DNA of 13,543 nucleotides. Origin: a virus (lineage: Duplodnaviria; Heunggongvirae; Uroviricota; Caudoviricetes). Position 1 is the first letter of the stretch; each line of letters starts with the position of its first letter. The stretch lies in IMG/VR virus record IMGVR_UViG_2657245483_000004; one strand, given 5' to 3'. A model generated the notes under the pieces. That model had not been told where the DNA came from, made no database searches, and worked only from the letters and a program-made list of their open reading frames with translations. This document shows positions 1,641-12,463 of the stretch, piece after piece. Position numbers and translations under genes: made by a program.

Positions 1641-4112
1641 TTAAGAATCAGCCTGACTCGGGATCAGTTTTTGCCAGATAACTGAAACGTATTTTGCCTG
1701 GTAACGGGCGTCATCAAGTGCATTATGGCGCTCACCTTCGAATGGAATAGCCGTTCTGGCATCGAAGTCTATGGCTTTCCCCAGCTCAACGATTGTGCGT
1801 ACATCGCGATCGTTGTAGTAACGCCACGGGCAGGGGATCCCCTGCCGTTCGTATGAACGGCGCAAAATCGTGTTGTCGAAGTTGGCTCCATTTCCCCAGA
1901 CCTGAACAAAAAATTCACCGGAGTTTTCGTCGATAAATTCCCACAATTGTAACAGTGCATCATCTAACGGGATTTCATCGGTCATAATGGCAGATTGCGC
2001 TTCGCGTGATTGCTTAAGCCACCATTTAATGGTGTCCCGATCAATGACTCCGCCAGCAGTTTCCAGATCGATAGTCTTACTAAATTCCGGTCCCATATCT
2101 CCGGTTTGCGGATCGAAAAATATTGCACCTATTGAGATGATCGGGGCATCAGGATTTTTTCCCATGGTTTCAAGGTCGATCATTAGATGGTCACACGTCC
2201 TGCTGGTGGATGTGATTTCTTGATGACCGTTCACCTTAATTGAGTGATCTGCCGTCTCGCCAGTTTCATTATCGCTATCGTGATGCTGATTGCCGCCAGT
2301 GTTCTCCTTGTGTGGATGTTCAGCGCCTTCCATTTCCTCCGGATCATCTTCCTGAACTTCAATCTGATACTCTTCATCGAATGTTTCCTGGTATGTTGCG
2401 TCGCCCATTACCGCGCCACAATCAGGGCAGTTGCCGCCGCCGGTCTGACCGCAGGCGGTGCAGACTTTTTCCACTTCCTGTTGCGCCACTGATTCAGGCT
2501 GTTTCGTTTCTGGCTCGTTTTGTAACGCATTTGGGCTGTTTTGTTCCGCTTTTTGGTAGTTCCGTTCCGATTCATGCTGGTTCTGGTTCACAGAATCGCG
2601 GGTCTGGATCCCCTTAACCCATTTCGGATCATTCGGGTCACTAATCCCTTCAACAAATTCACCACGTGATGCAGCAAGCAACTTATCGGCGTCAGGCTGG
2701 ATGATATTGGCTGCCTGCATAATTTTGTTTACTTCGTCAGCGGTAACTTTTATCGGCTCTGGTTGTTCTGAATCTTCAGCGGTATCTACATTTTGCGGTA
2801 AGCCCGTGTATGTGCCATTTTTTCGGGCAAAATATTCTTCTTTTGTGATTTCAGTGGCGCCAGCAGCCAGTGCCTTATCCAGACCAGAAAGTTTGTTTGC
2901 GCGACCGTATTTTTCTCCGTCCTTATCTGCGAAGAGGAAATAGAACGGCCCCTCACGCTCTACAGATGGTTCAGCTTCCGGCGCGGTTTCATTTTTTGGG
3001 ATATCAGATACCTCAGTTTCCACTGCATCAGTTTGTGTTTCTGATGACTGGAGAACATCAACAGTGCCCAGGTCTGTTTCTTCATTCTCAAACACGCCCT
3101 TTGTCGTCAGGTATTCGCAGATATATTTGTTCAGTGCTACGGGATCTTTGTGAATGTCGATCGGACGCTCACGGACAAGGCCAAAAATAGTTTGGCGGTC
3201 GTAGCGAAGGGCATCAGGCTGTTTGCGCATTGATGCCGAGATACGCTTCCAGTCTTCGCGGTCGTTGTCGATAACTTCATTTTTTGCCCAGCGATGGATG
3301 CTGCCGTCAATGTTTCCGGCATCCACATCACCAGGCCAGAGAGCGTAGGCCAGTTCGTCATCCAGTGTTTTCCATGTCTGCTTGTATTCGCGATGAATGG
3401 CAGCAATGACCGGGCTGATTTTTCCTGTTGAATTTTCAGTGTACTGTTGATTGGCTCTGGCGCGGGCGAGATCAACAACAGACGTGTATTTTCCGGTTTC
3501 CTTGCGTTCACCTTCGCGACGTTTTTTCCAGATGCGCATCTCTGCCTGAATTTCGGGCCATTTAGCACCAGGAATACATTTATGCTTAACCCACCCAATG
3601 GCGTGCAACTTAAGCTCCGGATACATGGCGTTAACTTCTGGCATTTTCATCAACGCTTCAACGATATGTCCGTCGAATGTTGCCATGTCTTCCTGCAACA
3701 ATTCCTGTGCGCTAATAACCATATCAACGGTGATGTTTTCACATGTGTCGAACTTAACCATGACAGCGTTCTGTACTTCAGGGGCCAGCTTGTCAAAAGT
3801 GACGTTCATCGGATCGGATTCAGTCTCAACCGGGACAAAAGAAGCAGACTCCTCATCCCAGCGGTTTTCCTGCATATATTCAGCATCCCATGAATCGAGG
3901 GCAGGGCGGGGTATGCCAGGTTTATCCTCGCAGACAATAAATTTATAAGCGCAGTCCTGAGCAGCCGGATAATGTTCCAGGAATTGCCAGTGAAATTTTG
4001 CTCGAGCACGGCGTTCGTCGCCAGCTTCAATGGCTGTGGCTACAGCCACAGCGCCTTCTTCCCTTGTTGCCAGTTCGTCAGGAATAGCGGCGCAAATAAA
4101 GACTTTACTCAT
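1641..4112 (-). CDS. Large phage exonuclease (exodeoxyribonuclease VIII-like; C-terminal DEDDh 3'-5' exonuclease domain, central zinc ribbon)
   Basis: Track ORF 1641..4148 opens at a TTG. Start placed at ATG 4110-4112 (MSKVFICAAIPDE...), which has GAGG about 10 nt upstream. C-terminus shows Exo I (MIDLETMG), Exo II (WGNGANFDN) and Exo III (HNALDDARY) motifs. Central CTACGQTGGGNCPDCG is a C-x2-C-x8-C-x2-C ribbon. A mid-protein segment (DKLLAASRGEFVEGISDPNDPKWVKGIQTRD) matches my recollection of E. coli RecE-family proteins. Confidence 0.8.
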   Translation of the reverse strand: MSKVFICAAIPDELATREEGAVAVATAIEAGDERRARAKFHWQFLEHYPAAQDCAYKFIVCEDKPGIPRPALDSWDAEYMQENRWDEESASFVPVETESDPMNVTFDKLAPEVQNAVMVKFDTCENITVDMVISAQELLQEDMATFDGHIVEALMKMPEVNAMYPELKLHAIGWVKHKCIPGAKWPEIQAEMRIWKKRREGERKETGKYTSVVDLARARANQQYTENSTGKISPVIAAIHREYKQTWKTLDDELAYALWPGDVDAGNIDGSIHRWAKNEVIDNDREDWKRISASMRKQPDALRYDRQTIFGLVRERPIDIHKDPVALNKYICEYLTTKGVFENEETDLGTVDVLQSSETQTDAVETEVSDIPKNETAPEAEPSVEREGPFYFLFADKDGEKYGRANKLSGLDKALAAGATEITKEEYFARKNGTYTGLPQNVDTAEDSEQPEPIKVTADEVNKIMQAANIIQPDADKLLAASRGEFVEGISDPNDPKWVKGIQTRDSVNQNQHESERNYQKAEQNSPNALQNEPETKQPESVAQQEVEKVCTACGQTGGGNCPDCGAVMGDATYQETFDEEYQIEVQEDDPEEMEGAEHPHKENTGGNQHHDSDNETGETADHSIKVNGHQEITSTSRTCDHLMIDLETMGKNPDAPIISIGAIFFDPQTGDMGPEFSKTIDLETAGGVIDRDTIKWWLKQSREAQSAIMTDEIPLDDALLQLWEFIDENSGEFFVQVWGNGANFDNTILRRSYERQGIPCPWRYYNDRDVRTIVELGKAIDFDARTAIPFEGERHNALDDARYQAKYVSVIWQKLIPSQADS

Positions 4113-4750: not shown

Positions 4751-4808
4751 AAAAAGGGCGGCAGAGCAGTCACGGAGTAAAACTGATACCGCCAAACGTC
4801 ACCAGAAA
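4751..4808 (-). ncRNA. dicF: DicF small regulatory RNA
   Basis: Minus-strand sequence TTTCTGGTGACGTTTGGCGGTATCAGTTTTACTCCGTGACTGCTCTGCCGCCCTTTTT matches recalled DicF, including the 3' GC stem plus T-run (plus 4751-4770). Positioned between ydfC and dicB. Confidence 0.8.
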
Positions 4809-7357: not shown

Positions 7358-7428
7358 CTGACAATAGCCATATCGAATCGCTTCCGGCAACTCGTGAGTA
7401 AAAAGATTCGGTATCAGAAGAGGTGAGT

Positions 7429-8499
7429 ATGGCTAACGCCTGGCTCAGATTATGGCATGACATGCCAAATGACCCTAAGTGGCGAACAATTGCCAGGGTG
7501 TCAGGGCAGCCAATTGCAACAGTGATGGCAGTGTATATCCACCTCCTGGTGAGCGCGTCACGAAATGTCACGCGAGGTCACATTGATGTCACGACAGAAG
7601 ATTTGGCAAGTGCGCTCGACGTGACAGAAGAGGTAATTGATTCAATTTTGCAGACGATGCAGGGGCGGGTACTTGATGGTGATTTAATCACTGGATGGGA
7701 AAAACGCCAGGTGCTGAAAGAGGACAACGGCAATATTTCGCAAACCGCAAAATCTCCGGCAGAGCGCAAGAGGGCGCAGCGAGAGAGGGAAAGAAAGCGG
7801 GAACAAAATGGCGATTGTCACGGCGCGTCACGAAATGTCACGCACATGTCACGACGAGTCACGACAGATAAAGATACAGATAAAGATACAGATCAAGAAG
7901 ATCAAAACACTATGGTCCATGGCGTAAAAAACGCCACGAACCAGGCAGGGGATGTTCAGACCGTCAATCCTGGTCAGCCAGCAGGCACGACACCGGAAGC
8001 CGATTCAGCGTATGCGCTGAAAGCCGATTCGGGCGCTGTGCAGCAGGTGATGACCCCAAGGCCGGAGCAATCACACCAACTGCAGCAGCCTGAAGCCGAT
8101 TCCGCCATTCAGCGGGAAGCCGATCGGGTAGTCCCGGAAAACACCGGGCTGTCTGTGGGACGAGTGGATTATCCGGATGTGTTCGAACAGGTCTGGCGGG
8201 AGTACCCGTTGCGTGCCGGAGCAAACCCGAAGAAATCCGCTTTCAGTGCCTGGAAGGCCAGATTACGCGAGGGGGTGCCACCAGAGGCCATGCTGGATGG
8301 CGTGAGGCGTTACGCAAGATACTTGGCGGCTACCGGGAAAACGGGAACGGAATTTGTTCAGCGAGCGACGACGTTTTTTGGACCGGACCGGAATTTTGAG
8401 AACCCCTGGTTGCTCCCGGTAAGCGGCACGAACAACCAGCGTTGTGTGAATCATATTTCTGAACCGGATACCGAAATTCCACCGGGCTTCAGGGGGTAA
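7429..8499 (+). CDS. Phage replication initiation protein (O-like; DUF1376-type N-terminal domain)
   Basis: Track ORF 7423..8499 opens at GTG. ATG at 7429-7431 has GAGGTGA 5 nt upstream. N-terminus (MANAWLRLWHDMPNDPKWRTIARVSGQPIATVMAVYIHLLVSAS) resembles prophage replication proteins. Iteron-like repeats lie inside the gene, as with ori-lambda inside O. Confidence 0.75.
   Translation: MANAWLRLWHDMPNDPKWRTIARVSGQPIATVMAVYIHLLVSASRNVTRGHIDVTTEDLASALDVTEEVIDSILQTMQGRVLDGDLITGWEKRQVLKEDNGNISQTAKSPAERKRAQRERERKREQNGDCHGASRNVTHMSRRVTTDKDTDKDTDQEDQNTMVHGVKNATNQAGDVQTVNPGQPAGTTPEADSAYALKADSGAVQQVMTPRPEQSHQLQQPEADSAIQREADRVVPENTGLSVGRVDYPDVFEQVWREYPLRAGANPKKSAFSAWKARLREGVPPEAMLDGVRRYARYLAATGKTGTEFVQRATTFFGPDRNFENPWLLPVSGTNNQRCVNHISEPDTEIPPGFRG
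7553..7600. repeat. Iteron-like cluster 1: four GTCAC(G/A) copies at helical spacing
   Basis: GTCACG at 7557, 7567 and 7588, GTCACA at 7577 (spacings 10, 10, 11 bp). The 21-mer GCGCGTCACGAAATGTCACGC (7553-7573) is repeated exactly at 7823-7843. Confidence 0.55.
7817..7908. repeat. Iteron-like cluster 2 followed by an A-rich tandem repeat (candidate phage origin)
   Basis: Five GTCACG copies at 7817, 7827, 7837, 7848, 7858 (spacings 10, 10, 11, 10). Then GATAAAGATACA twice (7867-7890) and a degenerate third, GATCAAGAAGATCAAAAC (7891-7908). Confidence 0.55.
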
Positions 8500-8539: not shown

Positions 8540-8962
8540 GTGGCAAAAGTTTTTACACAAGAAGAGCGAGAAAAAATTAAAGGGCAGGTTGTTGAACTCG
8601 TACGCCAGAGTGGGCGTGAGACGTTACGGCAACTGGAAGTCAAGACAGGTGCGACAAGATATCTGATGAGCGTTCTCGCAAGAGAGCTGGTTGCCAGCGG
8701 CGATGTATACAACTCCGGCTACGGGTTATTCCCCTCTGAACAGGCGCGTAAGGACTGGCAAAACGCCCGCAAAAAACTCTCGAGGGCAAAGGTGAAGAAA
8801 CCTGCTGTGGTTGATCCGGACCTTATCTGGTCATCACCTGACGGAGAAATACGTCGCTACGACAGTCGCCTAAACATAATCTGTCGCGAGTGCCGGAAGA
8901 GTGAAGCTATGCAGCGTGTACTGGCTTTCTATCAGGGTAATTTTCAGGAGGCGGTACTGTGA
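8540..8962 (+). CDS. Hypothetical early-region protein (140 aa)
   Basis: Track ORF. GTG start at 8540 preceded by AGGAGGG with a short spacer. Follows the replication initiator in the position where lambdoid phages usually encode a helicase loader, but it is too small and shows no Walker motifs. Confidence 0.55.
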   Translation: MAKVFTQEEREKIKGQVVELVRQSGRETLRQLEVKTGATRYLMSVLARELVASGDVYNSGYGLFPSEQARKDWQNARKKLSRAKVKKPAVVDPDLIWSSPDGEIRRYDSRLNIICRECRKSEAMQRVLAFYQGNFQEAVL

Positions 8963-9019
8963 GTGAAATTAGCTATCAGGCTTCAATTACCGCTGGCATT
9001 CGCATCAAAGGAGAGGAGC

Positions 9020-9376
9020 ATGGAAATAAAACCAGAGGATGAGTTAAGCAATATCGTTTTATTTCCGGTAAAAGAGGATGACCCTCGTAATCAGGTTAAT
9101 TTTCTTTATGAGCCATCGGAAAGACCATATTGTCATCACGCCTCTGTCCGGGTTGACGAAAAAGAGCGTCAGGTCCGCTGTAAAATCTGCGGTGCAGTTG
9201 TGGAGCCATTTGACTGGATGCTCTCTGTGGCGAAAAGAGAAACCAGACTGGCAGATGATGTAAGGCTCTTGCGTCAGGAGGAGCGGGAAAGGCGAAAAAA
9301 TATAGAAAAGCTAATTCAGATTGAGCGTAACGCGAAAGCGCGGATACGCAGGGCGACAAAATCCAGAACTGAATAA
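9020..9376 (+). CDS. Hypothetical protein with putative zinc ribbon and basic coiled-coil-like C-terminus
   Basis: ATG at 9020 with AGGAGAGGAG SD immediately upstream; the track's upstream GTG start at 8963 has no SD. Contains C-HH...C-x2-C (CHHASVRVDEKERQVRCKICG) and an R/K/E-rich C-terminus. Confidence 0.6.
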   Translation: MEIKPEDELSNIVLFPVKEDDPRNQVNFLYEPSERPYCHHASVRVDEKERQVRCKICGAVVEPFDWMLSVAKRETRLADDVRLLRQEERERRKNIEKLIQIERNAKARIRRATKSRTE

Positions 9377-9469
9377 TTAAATTTAGCTCTGTTAAAAATT
9401 TAATCCTTAACCGGAGGGATTTCTGCACCCTCAGAACATCAGGAGGCCGCCCGAAAGGGCGGTAGTTAA

Positions 9470-9652
9470 ATGCGAAAGTTTAAAATAATTATTGAAACGG
9501 GAATAGCCGGTGGAGATTTCGAGGATGAATTCGAAGTGGATGATGATGCGACGCCTGATGAAATACATGACGAAGCAAAAGATATTTTCTTTAACTACTG
9601 CAATTACTCATATCACGAAATAAAAGACGAAGAGGAAGAACAAAATGGCTGA
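9470..9652 (+). CDS. Strongly acidic small protein (60 aa), function unknown
   Basis: Track ORF. About one third of residues are D/E (DFEDEFEVDDDATPDEIHDE...KDEEEEQ). An AGGAGG SD (9441-9446) is separated from the ATG by a GC hairpin. Confidence 0.55.
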   Translation: MRKFKIIIETGIAGGDFEDEFEVDDDATPDEIHDEAKDIFFNYCNYSYHEIKDEEEEQNG

Positions 9653-9821
9653 TTTTGGTTCAACTAAATACAACGTCAGTTTTGAAGAATGGCATGAACT
9701 GTTAATGGACTATGCAGAGTTACGTGGTGGCAGTGCTGCTGATGCTGAAGCATGGCGTGATGATTATGAAGCAGGAAAAACTCCGGTCGAAGCATATTGT
9801 GATGAGTGGGGCGATGAATGA
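9645..9821 (+). CDS. Acidic small protein (58 aa), function unknown
   Basis: Not in the track (under 60 aa). MADFGSTKYNVSFEEWHELLMDYAELRGGSAADAEAWRDDYEAGKTPVEAYCDEWGDE. GAGGAAG SD 6 nt upstream. Its start overlaps the previous stop (ATGGCTGA) and its stop overlaps the next ATG (ATGA at 9818-9821). Confidence 0.5.
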   Translation: MADFGSTKYNVSFEEWHELLMDYAELRGGSAADAEAWRDDYEAGKTPVEAYCDEWGDE

Positions 9822-10075
9822 GCGAGGTTAATTATCAGGAAGGGCATGAAACGGCGGGGCAAGCAAAAACAGTGGCATGGCGATATCGCTACGTGAAAAA
9901 AAAGGCGTTACGGACTTTCAGGGGAAGTAGTGGTCTGGTGACTGGAAATATGTACCGAAAAAAGAGGATTGTAACGACAGGCCGAACTATGAAATTCAGG
10001 CCTTATTCACTGCCCCGCCAGTCCCGGTTACATCAGAAGAACTGGTTAAAGCTGTGCACTTTTATGAACAACTAA
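9818..10075 (+). CDS. Hypothetical ORF, frame uncertain
   Basis: Track ORF with an ATGA-coupled start, but the translation is unusually basic and low-complexity. A more protein-like alternative frame exists over 9931-10134; see findings. Confidence 0.3.
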   Translation: MSEVNYQEGHETAGQAKTVAWRYRYVKKKALRTFRGSSGLVTGNMYRKKRIVTTGRTMKFRPYSLPRQSRLHQKNWLKLCTFMNN

Positions 10076-10567: not shown

Positions 10568-10611
10568 GACTGCGGGTGCTTGAGGCTATCTGTCTCAGGC
10601 ATGAACACCAA

Positions 10612-10683
10612 AAGGCAGATAGAGAAAAGCCCCAGTTAACATTACGCGTCCTGCAAGACGCTTAACATTAATCTGAGGCCATA
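10612..10683 (-). ncRNA. Putative Sok-like antisense RNA (approximate bounds)
   Basis: Minus-strand promoter-like TTGACC (plus 10714-10719), 18-bp spacer, TAATCT. The transcript would be antisense to the mok start and leader. A minus-strand hairpin (GCGTC-ttgcag-GACGC) is followed by a T-rich stretch. Inferred by analogy with hok/sok loci; ends not determined. Confidence 0.3.
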
Positions 10684-10686
10684 TCT

Positions 10687-10746
10687 ATGCGACACATAGA
10701 GATTAGCCTCTTACGGACCGAAAGGTCAAGGAGAAGCAGGCTATGA
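10687..10746 (+). CDS. mok-like leader ORF (19 codons) coupled to hok
   Basis: ATG 10687 ... TGA 10744-10746, overlapping the hok ATG (10743-10745) as ATGA; AAGGAGAAG lies within it just upstream of hok. Shorter than the plasmid R1 mok, so assignment is by position. Confidence 0.4.
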   Translation: MRHIEISLLRTERSRRSRL

Positions 10747-10898: not shown

Positions 10899-10967
10899 GA
10901 GACCTGGCGGGGGAGAAATCCCTCGCCACCTCTGATGTGTCAGGCATCCTCAACGCACCCGCACGTA

Positions 10968-10993
10968 ACCCGCTTCGGCGGGTTTTGTTTTTT
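10968..10993 (+). terminator. Intrinsic terminator at the 3' end of the hok mRNA
   Basis: ACCCGC-TTCG-GCGGGT stem-loop followed by TTTGTTTTTT. The 3' fold-back element (10948-10962) lies immediately upstream. Confidence 0.6.
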
Positions 10994-11345: not shown

Positions 11346-12395
11346 GTGCGGGTATTACTTCGACCTGTTCTGGTACCGGAACTCGGGGTGGTGATCGTTA
11401 AGCCGGGCCGTGAATCCATGCCGGTATTCCACAATACCCGGGTACTGGTGGAGCCGGAACCGAAAAGCATGCGTAATCTGCCGTCCGGGGTCGTTCCTGC
11501 CGTTCGCCAGCCGCTGGTGGAAGACAAAACATTGCTGCCGTTTTTCAGTAACGCACGGGTGATTCGTGCTGCTGGTGGTGCTGGTGCATTGTCTGACTGG
11601 CTGTTGCGCCATATTAAATCCTGCCAGTGGCCACACGGCGATTATCACCACAGTGAAACCGTCATTCACCGTTATGGTACCGGCGCAATGGTGTTGTGCT
11701 GGCACTGCGACAACCAGCTGCGTGACCAGACATCCGAATCACTCGAGCAACTTGCTCATCAAAACCTGTCAGCATGGATGATTGACGTCATCGGTCACGC
11801 AATAAGCGGTACGCAGGAGCGTGAATTATCTCTGGCTGAATTATCCTGGTGGGCGGTCCGAAATCAGGTGGCGGATGCGCTACCTGAAGCGGTATTACGT
11901 CGCTCGCTGGGATTACCAGCGGAAAAAATCCGCTCAATGTACCGCGAAAGCGACATCGTACCGGGAGAGCAGACCGCCACCAGCATATTGAAACAGCGCA
12001 CAAAAAATCTTGCACTGTTGCCTCACGCCCACCAGGAACAACACCCACTACAGGAAAGGACGGTGGTAAGCATCACCGTTGATCCTGAGTCTCCGGAATC
12101 TTTCATGAAGCTACCTAAACGTCGCCGCTGGGTTAAGGAGAAATACACTCGCTGGGTGAAGACACAGCCGTGTGCTTGCTGCGGTATGCCAGCCGACGAT
12201 CCGCATCATCTGATTGGTCACGGGCAGGGCGGAATGGGAACCAAAGCACATGATCTTTTTGTGTTGCCTTTATGCAGAAAGCATCACGACGAACTGCATA
12301 CGGATACCGTGGCATTTGAAGAGAAGTATGGCTCCCAACTGGAGCTGATTTTTCGATTTATCGATCACGCGCTGGCAATTGGTGTGCTGGCCTAA
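11346..12395 (+). CDS. ydfU: DUF968-family protein (YdfU-like) with C-terminal Cys/His cluster
   Basis: Track ORF, 349 aa. GTG start with GGAGG 8 nt upstream; the rem stop TAA at 11342-11344 ends one nucleotide before the GTG. C-terminal PCACCGMPADDPHHLIGHGQGG...LPLCRKHHDELH. Confidence 0.8.
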   Translation: MRVLLRPVLVPELGVVIVKPGRESMPVFHNTRVLVEPEPKSMRNLPSGVVPAVRQPLVEDKTLLPFFSNARVIRAAGGAGALSDWLLRHIKSCQWPHGDYHHSETVIHRYGTGAMVLCWHCDNQLRDQTSESLEQLAHQNLSAWMIDVIGHAISGTQERELSLAELSWWAVRNQVADALPEAVLRRSLGLPAEKIRSMYRESDIVPGEQTATSILKQRTKNLALLPHAHQEQHPLQERTVVSITVDPESPESFMKLPKRRRWVKEKYTRWVKTQPCACCGMPADDPHHLIGHGQGGMGTKAHDLFVLPLCRKHHDELHTDTVAFEEKYGSQLELIFRFIDHALAIGVLA

Positions 12396-12453: not shown

Positions 12454-12463
12454 NNNNNNNNNN
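12454..12463. other. Run of 10 N (assembly gap or masked bases)
   Basis: Literal n characters in the sequence; they interrupt the Q-like ORF. Confidence 0.99.

What the first reader, a model, noticed from the sequence alone, without database searches (positions are those of the whole stretch)
9441..9472. Shine-Dalgarno separated from its start codon by a GC hairpin
AGGAGG (9441-9446) is about 23 nt from the ATG at 9470, normally too far. The spacer contains CCGCCC-GAAA-GGGCGG (9447-9462), a 6-bp GC stem with a GAAA tetraloop. Folding would bring the SD to near-normal distance, a structure-dependent initiation arrangement reported for a few phage genes.
Basis: seen in the sequence. Interest (0 to 1): 0.4.

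Follow-up and report, generated by a model that had tools for sequence, protein, structure and literature searches.

The report
Portable Shine-Dalgarno-plus-hairpin cassette in lambdoid prophages
A strong ribosome-binding motif sits 23 bases before a small prophage gene with a tight GC hairpin between them, and this same motif-plus-hairpin unit recurs in front of several unrelated genes in about 44% of complete E. coli genomes, most likely folding to bring the motif into working range of the start codon.

Summary
The ATG is the true start of a 60-aa DUF7167 gene in a Qin/Rac-like E. coli prophage. The hairpin is very stable (-12.4 to -14.4 kcal/mol, pairing probability about 1). It has no U-tract, so it is not a terminator.

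Its anatomy matches the proven T4 gene 38 split ribosome-binding site. The unit is not private to this gene. The same 22-nt SD+hairpin precedes at least four unrelated gene families, with 6-9 nt from stem to start codon and no other SD. Homologues of two of these families that lack the cassette carry an ordinary SD 4-8 nt from the same start codon.

The cassette lies at combinatorial mosaic junctions and occurs in 2377 of 5426 complete E. coli genomes. Stem changes are mostly C-to-U, which keeps G·U pairs in plus-strand RNA, but no compensatory change was found.

It also occurs before a gene with its own SD and where no gene follows, so it is more than a ribosome-binding site.

Verdict: a probable hairpin-bridged SD carried on a mobile intergenic cassette. 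This is a new variant of a known kind and is untested experimentally. Interest 0.45.

The parts
9441..9446 (+). Shine-Dalgarno AGGAGG, directly abutting the stem
   Evidence: Duplex with the 16S 3' end is -10.3 kcal/mol. The GGAG core is invariant or nearly so in 35 distinct cassette variants. Variants seen are GGGAGG, AGGAGA, AGGAGT, AGGGGG and CGGAGG.
9447..9462 (+). Hairpin CCGCCC-GAAA-GGGCGG: 6 G-C pairs and a GNRA tetraloop, with a seventh pair G9446.U9463 possible
   Evidence: Energy and pairing probability. 95.9% of cells are paired across 35 variants. One-sided changes are mostly C-to-U, giving G.U. Loop variants are GGAA and GGCA.
9463..9469 (+). A/U-rich 7-nt spacer TAGTTAA with stop codons in two frames (TAG 9463-9465, TAA 9467-9469) and no SD-like motif
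   Evidence: Equivalent spacers of 6-9 nt occur in the other gene families.
9470..9652 (+). 60-aa DUF7167 / PHROG 1997 gene served by the cassette
9399..9440 (+). Upstream conserved half of the long cassette. It includes the near-invariant ATCCTTAACCGGAGGGA (9403-9419) and CACCCTCA. Alternative weak helices are GAGGG 9414-9418 with CCCTC 9428-9432, AATCCTT 9402-9408 with AGGGATT 9415-9421, and CCTC 9429-9432 with the SD.
   Evidence: Conservation profile and pair counts; folds. Function is unresolved.
9370..9380 (+). TGAATAATTAA, with stop codons in all three frames. This is the 5' edge of the long cassette, where different upstream genes join. The upstream ORF 8963-9376 ends at TAA 9374-9376.

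Best explanation
The element is a hairpin-bridged (split) ribosome-binding site carried on a mobile intergenic cassette of lambdoid prophages. In the plus-strand mRNA the 16-nt GC stem with its GAAA tetraloop folds essentially always. This places AGGAGG next to the base of the stem, so only 7 unstructured nucleotides separate that point from AUG 9470. The 30S subunit pairs with AGGAGG, the hairpin protrudes, and the AUG reaches the P site as it does in T4 gene 38. What is shown: the sequence, the stability of the fold, the correct start codon, conservation of the arrangement, the constrained spacing, the replacement by canonical SDs in homologues, and the position at mosaic junctions. What is inferred: that the ribosome uses this SD across the folded hairpin. 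The same 22-24 nt unit also serves as the shared homology at which upstream and downstream gene modules are exchanged.
For: (1) Exact anatomy and stability. (2) The T4 gene 38 initiation region, read from NC_000866, is UAAGGAG-[AGGGGC-UUCG-GCCCUU]-UAAAU-AUG at -14.1 kcal/mol. Like the element here, it has a strong SD abutting a GC stem with a stable tetraloop, followed by a short A/U spacer. The review PMC3014915 reports that gene 38 goes from 22 to 5 nt and gene 25 from 27 to 11 nt, with mutational proof. (3) The same SD+hairpin precedes DUF7167 (spacer 7), a 72-aa membrane-like protein (6), the MTELTK proteins (8-9, with ATG or GTG at the same codon) and the MQ[DE]IKEN proteins (9). None of these spacers has an SD-like motif. 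(4) In a natural swap, homologues of the 72-aa and MTELTK families without the cassette have AAGGAG, GGGAG, TAAGGAG or TGAGG 4-8 nt before the same start codon. (5) The gene family that has its own GGAG after the hairpin is the only one with a longer spacing, 11 nt. (6) Stem variants are mainly C-to-U in the 5' arm plus one C-to-U in the 3' arm. All keep G.U pairs only in plus-strand RNA, with 14 compatible against 5 disruptive cells. With the 5' arm fixed, the 3' arm is GGGCGG in 113 of 114 copies. (7) The composite motif is expected 0.01 times per window by chance. (8) Opening the hairpin to use the SD-like 3' arm (-8.2 kcal/mol) costs more than it gains.
Against: There are no compensatory double changes. 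Shuffle controls are not exceeded, and four variant types break a pair (CGGCCC, CCACCC, CCACCA, AGGCGG). The cassette also occurs where bridging is useless: before a gene with its own SD, before an inserted segment, and at a convergent gene end. Three loci keep only the 3' half of the hairpin and have no AGGAGG, yet retain the gene. In long contexts the fold predicts partial pairing of the SD with upstream CCUC or UCCU. No expression data were available.
Confidence: 0.6

Rival explanations
1. The hairpin is mainly an RNA-end or module-boundary element. It could be a decayed or context-dependent terminator, or a barrier against exonucleases that stabilises the upstream message. The AGGAGG would then be a leftover of a longer terminator stem, and the downstream genes would initiate without it.
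For: In unrelated phyla the same 21-mer is the 5' half of classical terminators, GGAGGCCGCCC-GAAA-GGGCGGCCUC(C)-UUUU, where GGAGG pairs with CCUCC. The cassette travels with upstream modules and ends operons facing a convergent gene. In Citrobacter L265 the tail there is U-rich. It also occurs before a gene with its own SD.
Against: No U-tract follows the hairpin in the window or in families A-E. The real hok terminator at 10967-10984 is detected by the same scan. The rival does not explain the 6-9 nt spacing, the absence of any other SD, or the canonical SDs in cassette-less homologues.
Confidence: 0.2
2. The conserved unit matters at the DNA level only, as a short shared homology where lambdoid phages recombine. 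Any effect on translation would be incidental.
For: Homology breaks lie exactly at the 3' end of the stem and just 5' of TCAGGAGG. The same upstream types are joined to 3-5 downstream families and the reverse. Direct repeats lie 1064-1072 nt apart in ArgO145-like phages.
Against: A purely DNA-level role does not predict the strand-specific substitution pattern, in which C-to-U is tolerated and G-to-A is nearly absent. It also does not predict the constrained distance to start codons. This role is compatible with the best explanation rather than exclusive of it.
Confidence: 0.1
3. The GNRA hairpin is an operator for an RNA-binding protein. This could be a translational repressor, or an N-type antiterminator binding a boxB-like hairpin.
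For: A GC stem with a GAAA or GGAA loop resembles boxB-type hairpins (own knowledge). The near-invariant upstream 17-mer suggests a further recognition element.
Against: Rfam gives no match. Copies lie deep within both early operons and occur several times per phage, rather than promoter-proximal. No candidate binding protein was identified.
Confidence: 0.07
4. It is a functional intrinsic terminator of the upstream genes in this window.
For: It is a stable GC hairpin in an intergenic region after three rightward early-operon (pR-type) genes.
Against: The tail is UAGUUAAAUG on the plus strand and CCUCCUGAUG on the minus strand. Neither is called by the scans.
Confidence: 0.03

Closest known systems
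Split (hairpin-bridged) ribosome-binding sites of phage T4 genes 38 and 25 (Nivinskas et al. 1999; Malys and Nivinskas 2009; reviewed in PMC3014915)
   Same: A strong SD lies 22-27 nt from the AUG. A stable GC hairpin capped by a stable tetraloop fills the spacer and abuts the SD. A short A/U stretch of 5-11 nt remains between stem and AUG. Energies are similar, at -14.1 for T4 gene 38 and -12.4 to -15.5 here.
   Different: The loop is GNRA rather than UUCG. The host is a temperate lambdoid prophage, not a T-even phage. One near-identical cassette serves at least four unrelated gene families and lies at mosaic junctions, whereas the T4 cases are gene-specific. It is untested experimentally.
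PeSL mobile regulatory cassettes of T4-type phages (PMC2839356, PMC4122927)
   Same: These are short, near-identical intergenic cassettes containing a stem-loop. They are repeated in plastic genome regions, flank small accessory genes and coincide with modular shuffling.
   Different: PeSLs combine a strong early promoter with an effective terminator. Here no promoter and no U-tract are found, and the cassette supplies an SD instead.
Start-associated sequences (SAS/ESAS) of Cluster K mycobacteriophages (PMC3203893)
   Same: Both are repeated motifs that include the SD region, sit just upstream of the start codons of genes from different families, and are sometimes associated with inverted repeats. 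A role in translation initiation is proposed but unproven.
   Different: The sequence is different (GGGATAGGAGCCC). The SAS lies at normal distance from the start codon, and its inverted repeats lie upstream of it, not between the SD and the start codon.
Intrinsic terminators of the form GGAGGCCGCCC-GAAA-GGGCGGCCUCC-U(n)
   Same: The 21-nt sequence is identical.
   Different: In the cassette the 3' CCUCC and the U-tract are missing, so GGAGG is unpaired and a start codon follows.

Membership tests
Hairpin-bridged split RBS (T4 gene 38/25 type) | SD-like sequence too far from the start codon for direct use (more than about 13 nt) | tested here: met
   The AGGAGG end to ATG distance is 23 nt.
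Hairpin-bridged split RBS (T4 gene 38/25 type) | A stable local hairpin lies wholly inside the spacer | tested here: met
   -12.4 to -14.4 kcal/mol, with pair probability about 1 in four contexts.
Hairpin-bridged split RBS (T4 gene 38/25 type) | Residual spacing after folding lies in the functional range (5-11 nt) | tested here: met
   7 nt here, and 6-9 nt in three other gene families.
Hairpin-bridged split RBS (T4 gene 38/25 type) | No alternative SD at canonical distance, and the start codon is correctly assigned | tested here: met
   The spacer is TAGTTAA, an in-frame TAA precedes the ATG, and profile matches begin at residue 1-2.
Hairpin-bridged split RBS (T4 gene 38/25 type) | The stem is maintained in evolution by compensatory changes | tested here: inconclusive
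   There are no double changes. 14 one-sided G.U cells stand against 5 mismatches, and the shuffle controls are not exceeded.
Hairpin-bridged split RBS (T4 gene 38/25 type) | Stem-disrupting mutations lower initiation and compensatory mutations restore it | not testable with these tools
   This needs reporter fusions or toeprinting.
Rho-independent terminator | A GC-rich hairpin followed at once by a U-tract | tested here: not met
   The hairpin is present, but the tail is UAGUUAAAUG. It is not called, while the hok terminator at 10967-10984 is.
PeSL-type mobile regulatory cassette | A near-identical intergenic repeat at module junctions | tested here: met
PeSL-type mobile regulatory cassette | A strong sigma-70 promoter plus a functional terminator inside the cassette | tested here: not met
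   No plus-strand promoter-like or terminator-like site lies in 9300-9500.
Lambda-type nut site (boxA + boxB) | A boxB hairpin with a GNRA-like loop, a boxA upstream, and a promoter-proximal position in the pL/pR transcripts | tested here: not met
   A GNRA hairpin is present, but there is no Rfam match. Copies lie far downstream in the operons and occur more than once per phage. The boxA comparison rests on memory only.
Cluster K start-associated sequence | The 13-bp GGGATAGGAGCCC motif 3-8 bp upstream of start codons | tested here: not met
   The sequence and geometry differ. The resemblance is in concept only.

The most novel reading that the evidence does not exclude
The SD+hairpin unit is a plug-in translation-initiation module that doubles as the recombination joint for shuffling accessory genes among lambdoid prophages. 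It may have been born from an intrinsic terminator that lost its 3' CCUCC-U(n) half, which freed GGAGG to act as an SD across the remaining hairpin. That would make it a translation-level counterpart of the T4 PeSL cassettes.
Probability: 0.3. Interest if true: 0.6.

Novelty: new variant of a known kind. Interest (0 to 1): 0.45.

Why it matters
Hairpin-bridged SDs are known from only a couple of T4 genes. A case that is portable, serves several gene families and is present in about 44% of complete E. coli genomes would show that the mechanism is widespread in temperate phages. It would give a natural, compact part for studying how the 30S subunit tolerates structure between the SD and the AUG. 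It would also explain systematic start-codon mis-calls by gene finders, which extend the ORF through the cassette. Finally, it points to a concrete short sequence at which lambdoid mosaic junctions form.

Tried and rejected
- **Rfam.** Searches at E<=10 over 9000-9900 and at gathering threshold over the whole window found nothing at the site.
- **Terminator reading.** Rejected because neither strand has a U-tract.
- **Distant DUF7167 relatives.** The protein search returned essentially only E. coli sequences, and the first locus search returned 80 identical proteins. Neither gave deep covariation.
- **First genome-contig scan.** Run with the MTELTK protein, it confirmed nothing.
- **Hairpin sequence in the literature.** No paper holds CCGCCCGAAAGGGCGG.
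- **K-12 copies.** The Rac and Qin prophages of K-12 were checked in the hope of linking to published expression data. Neither has a copy.
- **Upstream helices.** I tried to decide between alternative helices in the upstream half of the cassette (GAGGG:CCCTC, AATCCTT:AGGGATT and CCTC:SD). Variation is too low and partly disruptive for all of them.
- **The 3' arm GGGCGGU as the real SD.** Rejected on energetics, because its -8.2 kcal/mol duplex is outweighed by the -12.4 kcal/mol hairpin.
- **L217.** This match is a chance hit inside a coding sequence.

Full report
**Setting.** The window is a Qin/Rac-like lambdoid prophage of E. coli, 99.9% identical over the tested 1.2 kb to Escherichia phage vB_EcoS-640R1.
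- Going rightward, it carries int, xis, recE, dicB and DicF RNA, then cI and a dicC/cro-like gene.
- These are followed by cII, a replication protein O (7423-8499) and a LygF/Ren-like gene (8540-8962).
- Next come a hypothetical gene (8963-9376), the intergenic region of the finding, and three small genes starting at 9470.
- After those come a hok/sok module, ydfU, rusA and Q.
- The finding therefore lies in the rightward early operon, co-oriented with its genes.

**Observation.**
- *Coordinates and start codon.* The sequence is exactly as described. ATG 9470 is the real start. An in-frame TAA sits at 9467-9469, and Pfam DUF7167 and PHROG 1997 align from residue 1-2 of the 60-aa product.
- *Stability.* The hairpin folds at -12.4 kcal/mol, or -14.4 with the G9446.U9463 pair. 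Its pairing probability is 0.99-1.0 in every context tried.
- *Chance.* A perfect all-GC 6-bp hairpin alone is not rare in 13.5 kb (0.23 per shuffle). A strong SD abutting such a hairpin with a start codon 4-10 nt after it is expected 0.01 times per window.

**Not a terminator, not a known RNA.** Neither strand has a U-tract after the stem. The consensus scan does not call the site, although it does call the genuine hok terminator at 10967-10984, which has a UUCG loop and a TTTTGTTTTTT tail. Rfam has no match at the site.

**The unit is a repeated cassette.**
- *Conserved piece.* BLAST showed that a roughly 65-nt piece of this intergenic region is conserved in phages whose flanking genes differ.
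- *Downstream families.* Reading those loci, and about 350 IMG/VR loci fetched by protein or by half-patterns of the hairpin, gave one consistent picture. The same AGGAGG-CCGCCC-GAAA-GGGCGG precedes each of the following:

| Downstream gene family | Stem-to-start distance |
|---|---|
| DUF7167 | 7 nt |
| 72-aa protein beginning MTTLFRK or MVTLFRK | 6 nt |
| Proteins beginning MTELTK (ATG or GTG at the same codon) | 8-9 nt |
| Proteins beginning MQ[DE]IKEN | 9 nt |

- *Spacers.* None of these spacers contains an SD-like motif. A fifth family has its own GGAG after the hairpin and is the only one with a longer distance, 11 nt.
- *Long and short upstream forms.* The long form of about 95 nt starts at TGAATAATTAA, which holds stop codons in all three frames. 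In the short form, a different upstream gene ends 5 nt before AGGAGG.
- *Mosaic junctions.* Upstream and downstream types combine freely, so the cassette marks mosaic junctions. ArgO145-like phages carry two direct copies 1064-1072 nt apart.
- *Prevalence.* The cassette is present in 2377 of 5426 complete E. coli genomes, at 3167 places and up to 7 per genome, with nothing annotated on it. Among species-representative genomes it was found in E. coli, Shigella and Citrobacter braakii, plus one contig labelled Collinsella sp. that carries E. coli-like phage sequence.

**Natural swap experiment.** Homologues of the 72-aa family that lack the cassette have AAAGGAGAGTGAT-ATG/GTG or GGGAGTGAT-ATG at the same start codon. 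Homologues of the MTELTK family without it have TAAGGAGTAACAC-ATG or TGAGGCATAATTT-ATG. So these genes carry either a canonical SD 4-8 nt from the start, or the SD+hairpin with 6-9 nt from stem to start. This is what the bridging model predicts.

**Comparison with the proven case.** I read the T4 gene 38 initiation region from NC_000866. It is UAAGGAG abutting AGGGGC-UUCG-GCCCUU at -14.1 kcal/mol, followed by about 5 nt and AUG. The review PMC3014915 states that this structure reduces 22 nt to 5 nt for gene 38, and 27 nt to 11 nt for gene 25, and that destabilising mutations lower initiation. The element here has the same parts in the same order.

**Evolution of the stem.**
- *The two arms vary unequally.* With the 3' arm fixed in the search pattern, about a fifth of copies vary in the 5' arm. 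With the 5' arm fixed, 113 of 114 true copies keep GGGCGG.
- *Pair-preserving variants.* CCGTCC, CCGCCT, CTGCCC, CTGTCC, CCGTCT and the 3' arm GGGTGG all keep G.U pairs in plus-strand RNA only.
- *Pair-breaking variants.* CGGCCC, CCACCC, CCACCA and AGGCGG each break one or more pairs.
- *Formal counting.* 95.9% of cells are paired. There are 14 one-sided compatible changes against 5 mismatches in the six core pairs. No compensatory change was found, and the shuffle controls were not exceeded.
- *Reading.* The pattern fits an RNA-level constraint on the plus strand but does not prove it.
- *Loop.* The loop is GAAA, with rare GGAA (still GNRA) and GGCA.

**Evidence that the cassette is more than a ribosome-binding site.**
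- *Contexts where bridging is useless.* The cassette occurs before a gene with its own SD and directly before an inserted segment. It also occurs at the end of the operon facing a convergent 184-aa gene.
- *Same 21-mer elsewhere.* In unrelated phyla the identical 21-mer is the 5' half of ordinary terminators, GGAGGCCGCCC-GAAA-GGGCGGCCUCC-UUUU. This suggests, without proving, that the cassette descends from a terminator that lost its 3' flank.
- *Upstream half.* The long cassette contains a near-invariant 17-mer, ATCCTTAACCGGAGGGA, and several mutually exclusive weak helices. One of these can pair with the SD. I could not decide among them.

**Conclusion.**
- *Best explanation (confidence about 0.6).* The element is a hairpin-bridged SD of the T4 gene 38 type, carried on a mobile intergenic cassette that also serves as a recombination joint.
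- *Main rival (about 0.2).* The hairpin is chiefly an RNA-end or ex-terminator element, and the SD is incidental.
- *Known versus new.* The mechanism is known. Its packaging as a shared, shuffling cassette in temperate phages appears undescribed in the literature searched. The nearest concepts are the T4-type PeSL cassettes and the mycobacteriophage start-associated sequences.
- *Limitation.* All statements about translation are inferences; no expression data were available.

Noticed in passing
window 9370-9380: TGAATAATTAA gives a stop codon in each of the three frames. It forms the 5' edge of the long cassette, where at least six different upstream gene ends join it.
   Followed up: partly
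window 9403-9419: The 17-mer ATCCTTAACCGGAGGGA is almost invariant in 59 distinct long cassettes, more conserved than its surroundings. It can form AAUCCUU/AGGGAUU or GAGGG/CCCUC helices, and CCUC can also pair with the SD. No function could be assigned.
   Followed up: partly
L008, L088, L279, L284 (position equivalent to window 9416-9425): Some lineages replace GGGATTTCTG with a homopolymeric G run of variable length, about 7-11 G. This looks like slippage in the loop region of the upstream helix.
   Followed up: no
proteins P0003, P0009, P0004 (relatives of window 9470-9652): In variants where TAGTTAA is TAGTGAA the upstream frame is open. Gene callers then report 84-93-aa products whose N-terminus (...SLTGGISAPSEHQEAARKGGSE) is the translated cassette. 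In P0003, which represents 139 member sequences, the start Met is itself replaced by Arg. The cassette precedes other gene families in other reading frames, so these extensions are probably mis-called starts.
   Followed up: partly
L248-L271 (genome-contig hits): The identical 21-mer GGAG[GA]CCGCC[CT]GAAAGGGCGG occurs in Chloroflexi, Acidobacteria, Firmicutes, Alphaproteobacteria and others as the 5' half of classical intrinsic terminators, with CCUC(C) and a U-tract following.
   Followed up: partly
window 10967-10984: This is a classical intrinsic terminator, AACCCGC-TTCG-GCGGGTT followed by TTGTTTTTT, lying downstream of the hok/sok module (sok RNA 10574-10745 by Rfam). It is a useful internal contrast to the hairpin of the finding.
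   Followed up: yes
window 4756-4807 (minus strand): DicF sRNA matches Rfam at 76.7 bits, which confirms the Qin-like immunity and dicB region.
   Followed up: no
window 12454-12463: A run of 10 N lies just downstream of the ydfU-like ORF (11346-12395) and upstream of the Q gene.
   Followed up: no
L013, L029, L046: A DUF7167 gene is preceded by ...GGGGATCCCTCAGGCCCGAAAGGGCGGTAGTGAAATG. The recombination joint falls inside the hairpin, AGGAGG is lost, and only a 4-bp stem remains.
   Followed up: no
L223 and L265 (Citrobacter braakii): The cassette is followed within about 10 nt by the end of a convergent 184-aa gene on the other strand, with a fairly U-rich tail in L265. In this context the hairpin may act as an operon-end terminator.
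   Followed up: partly
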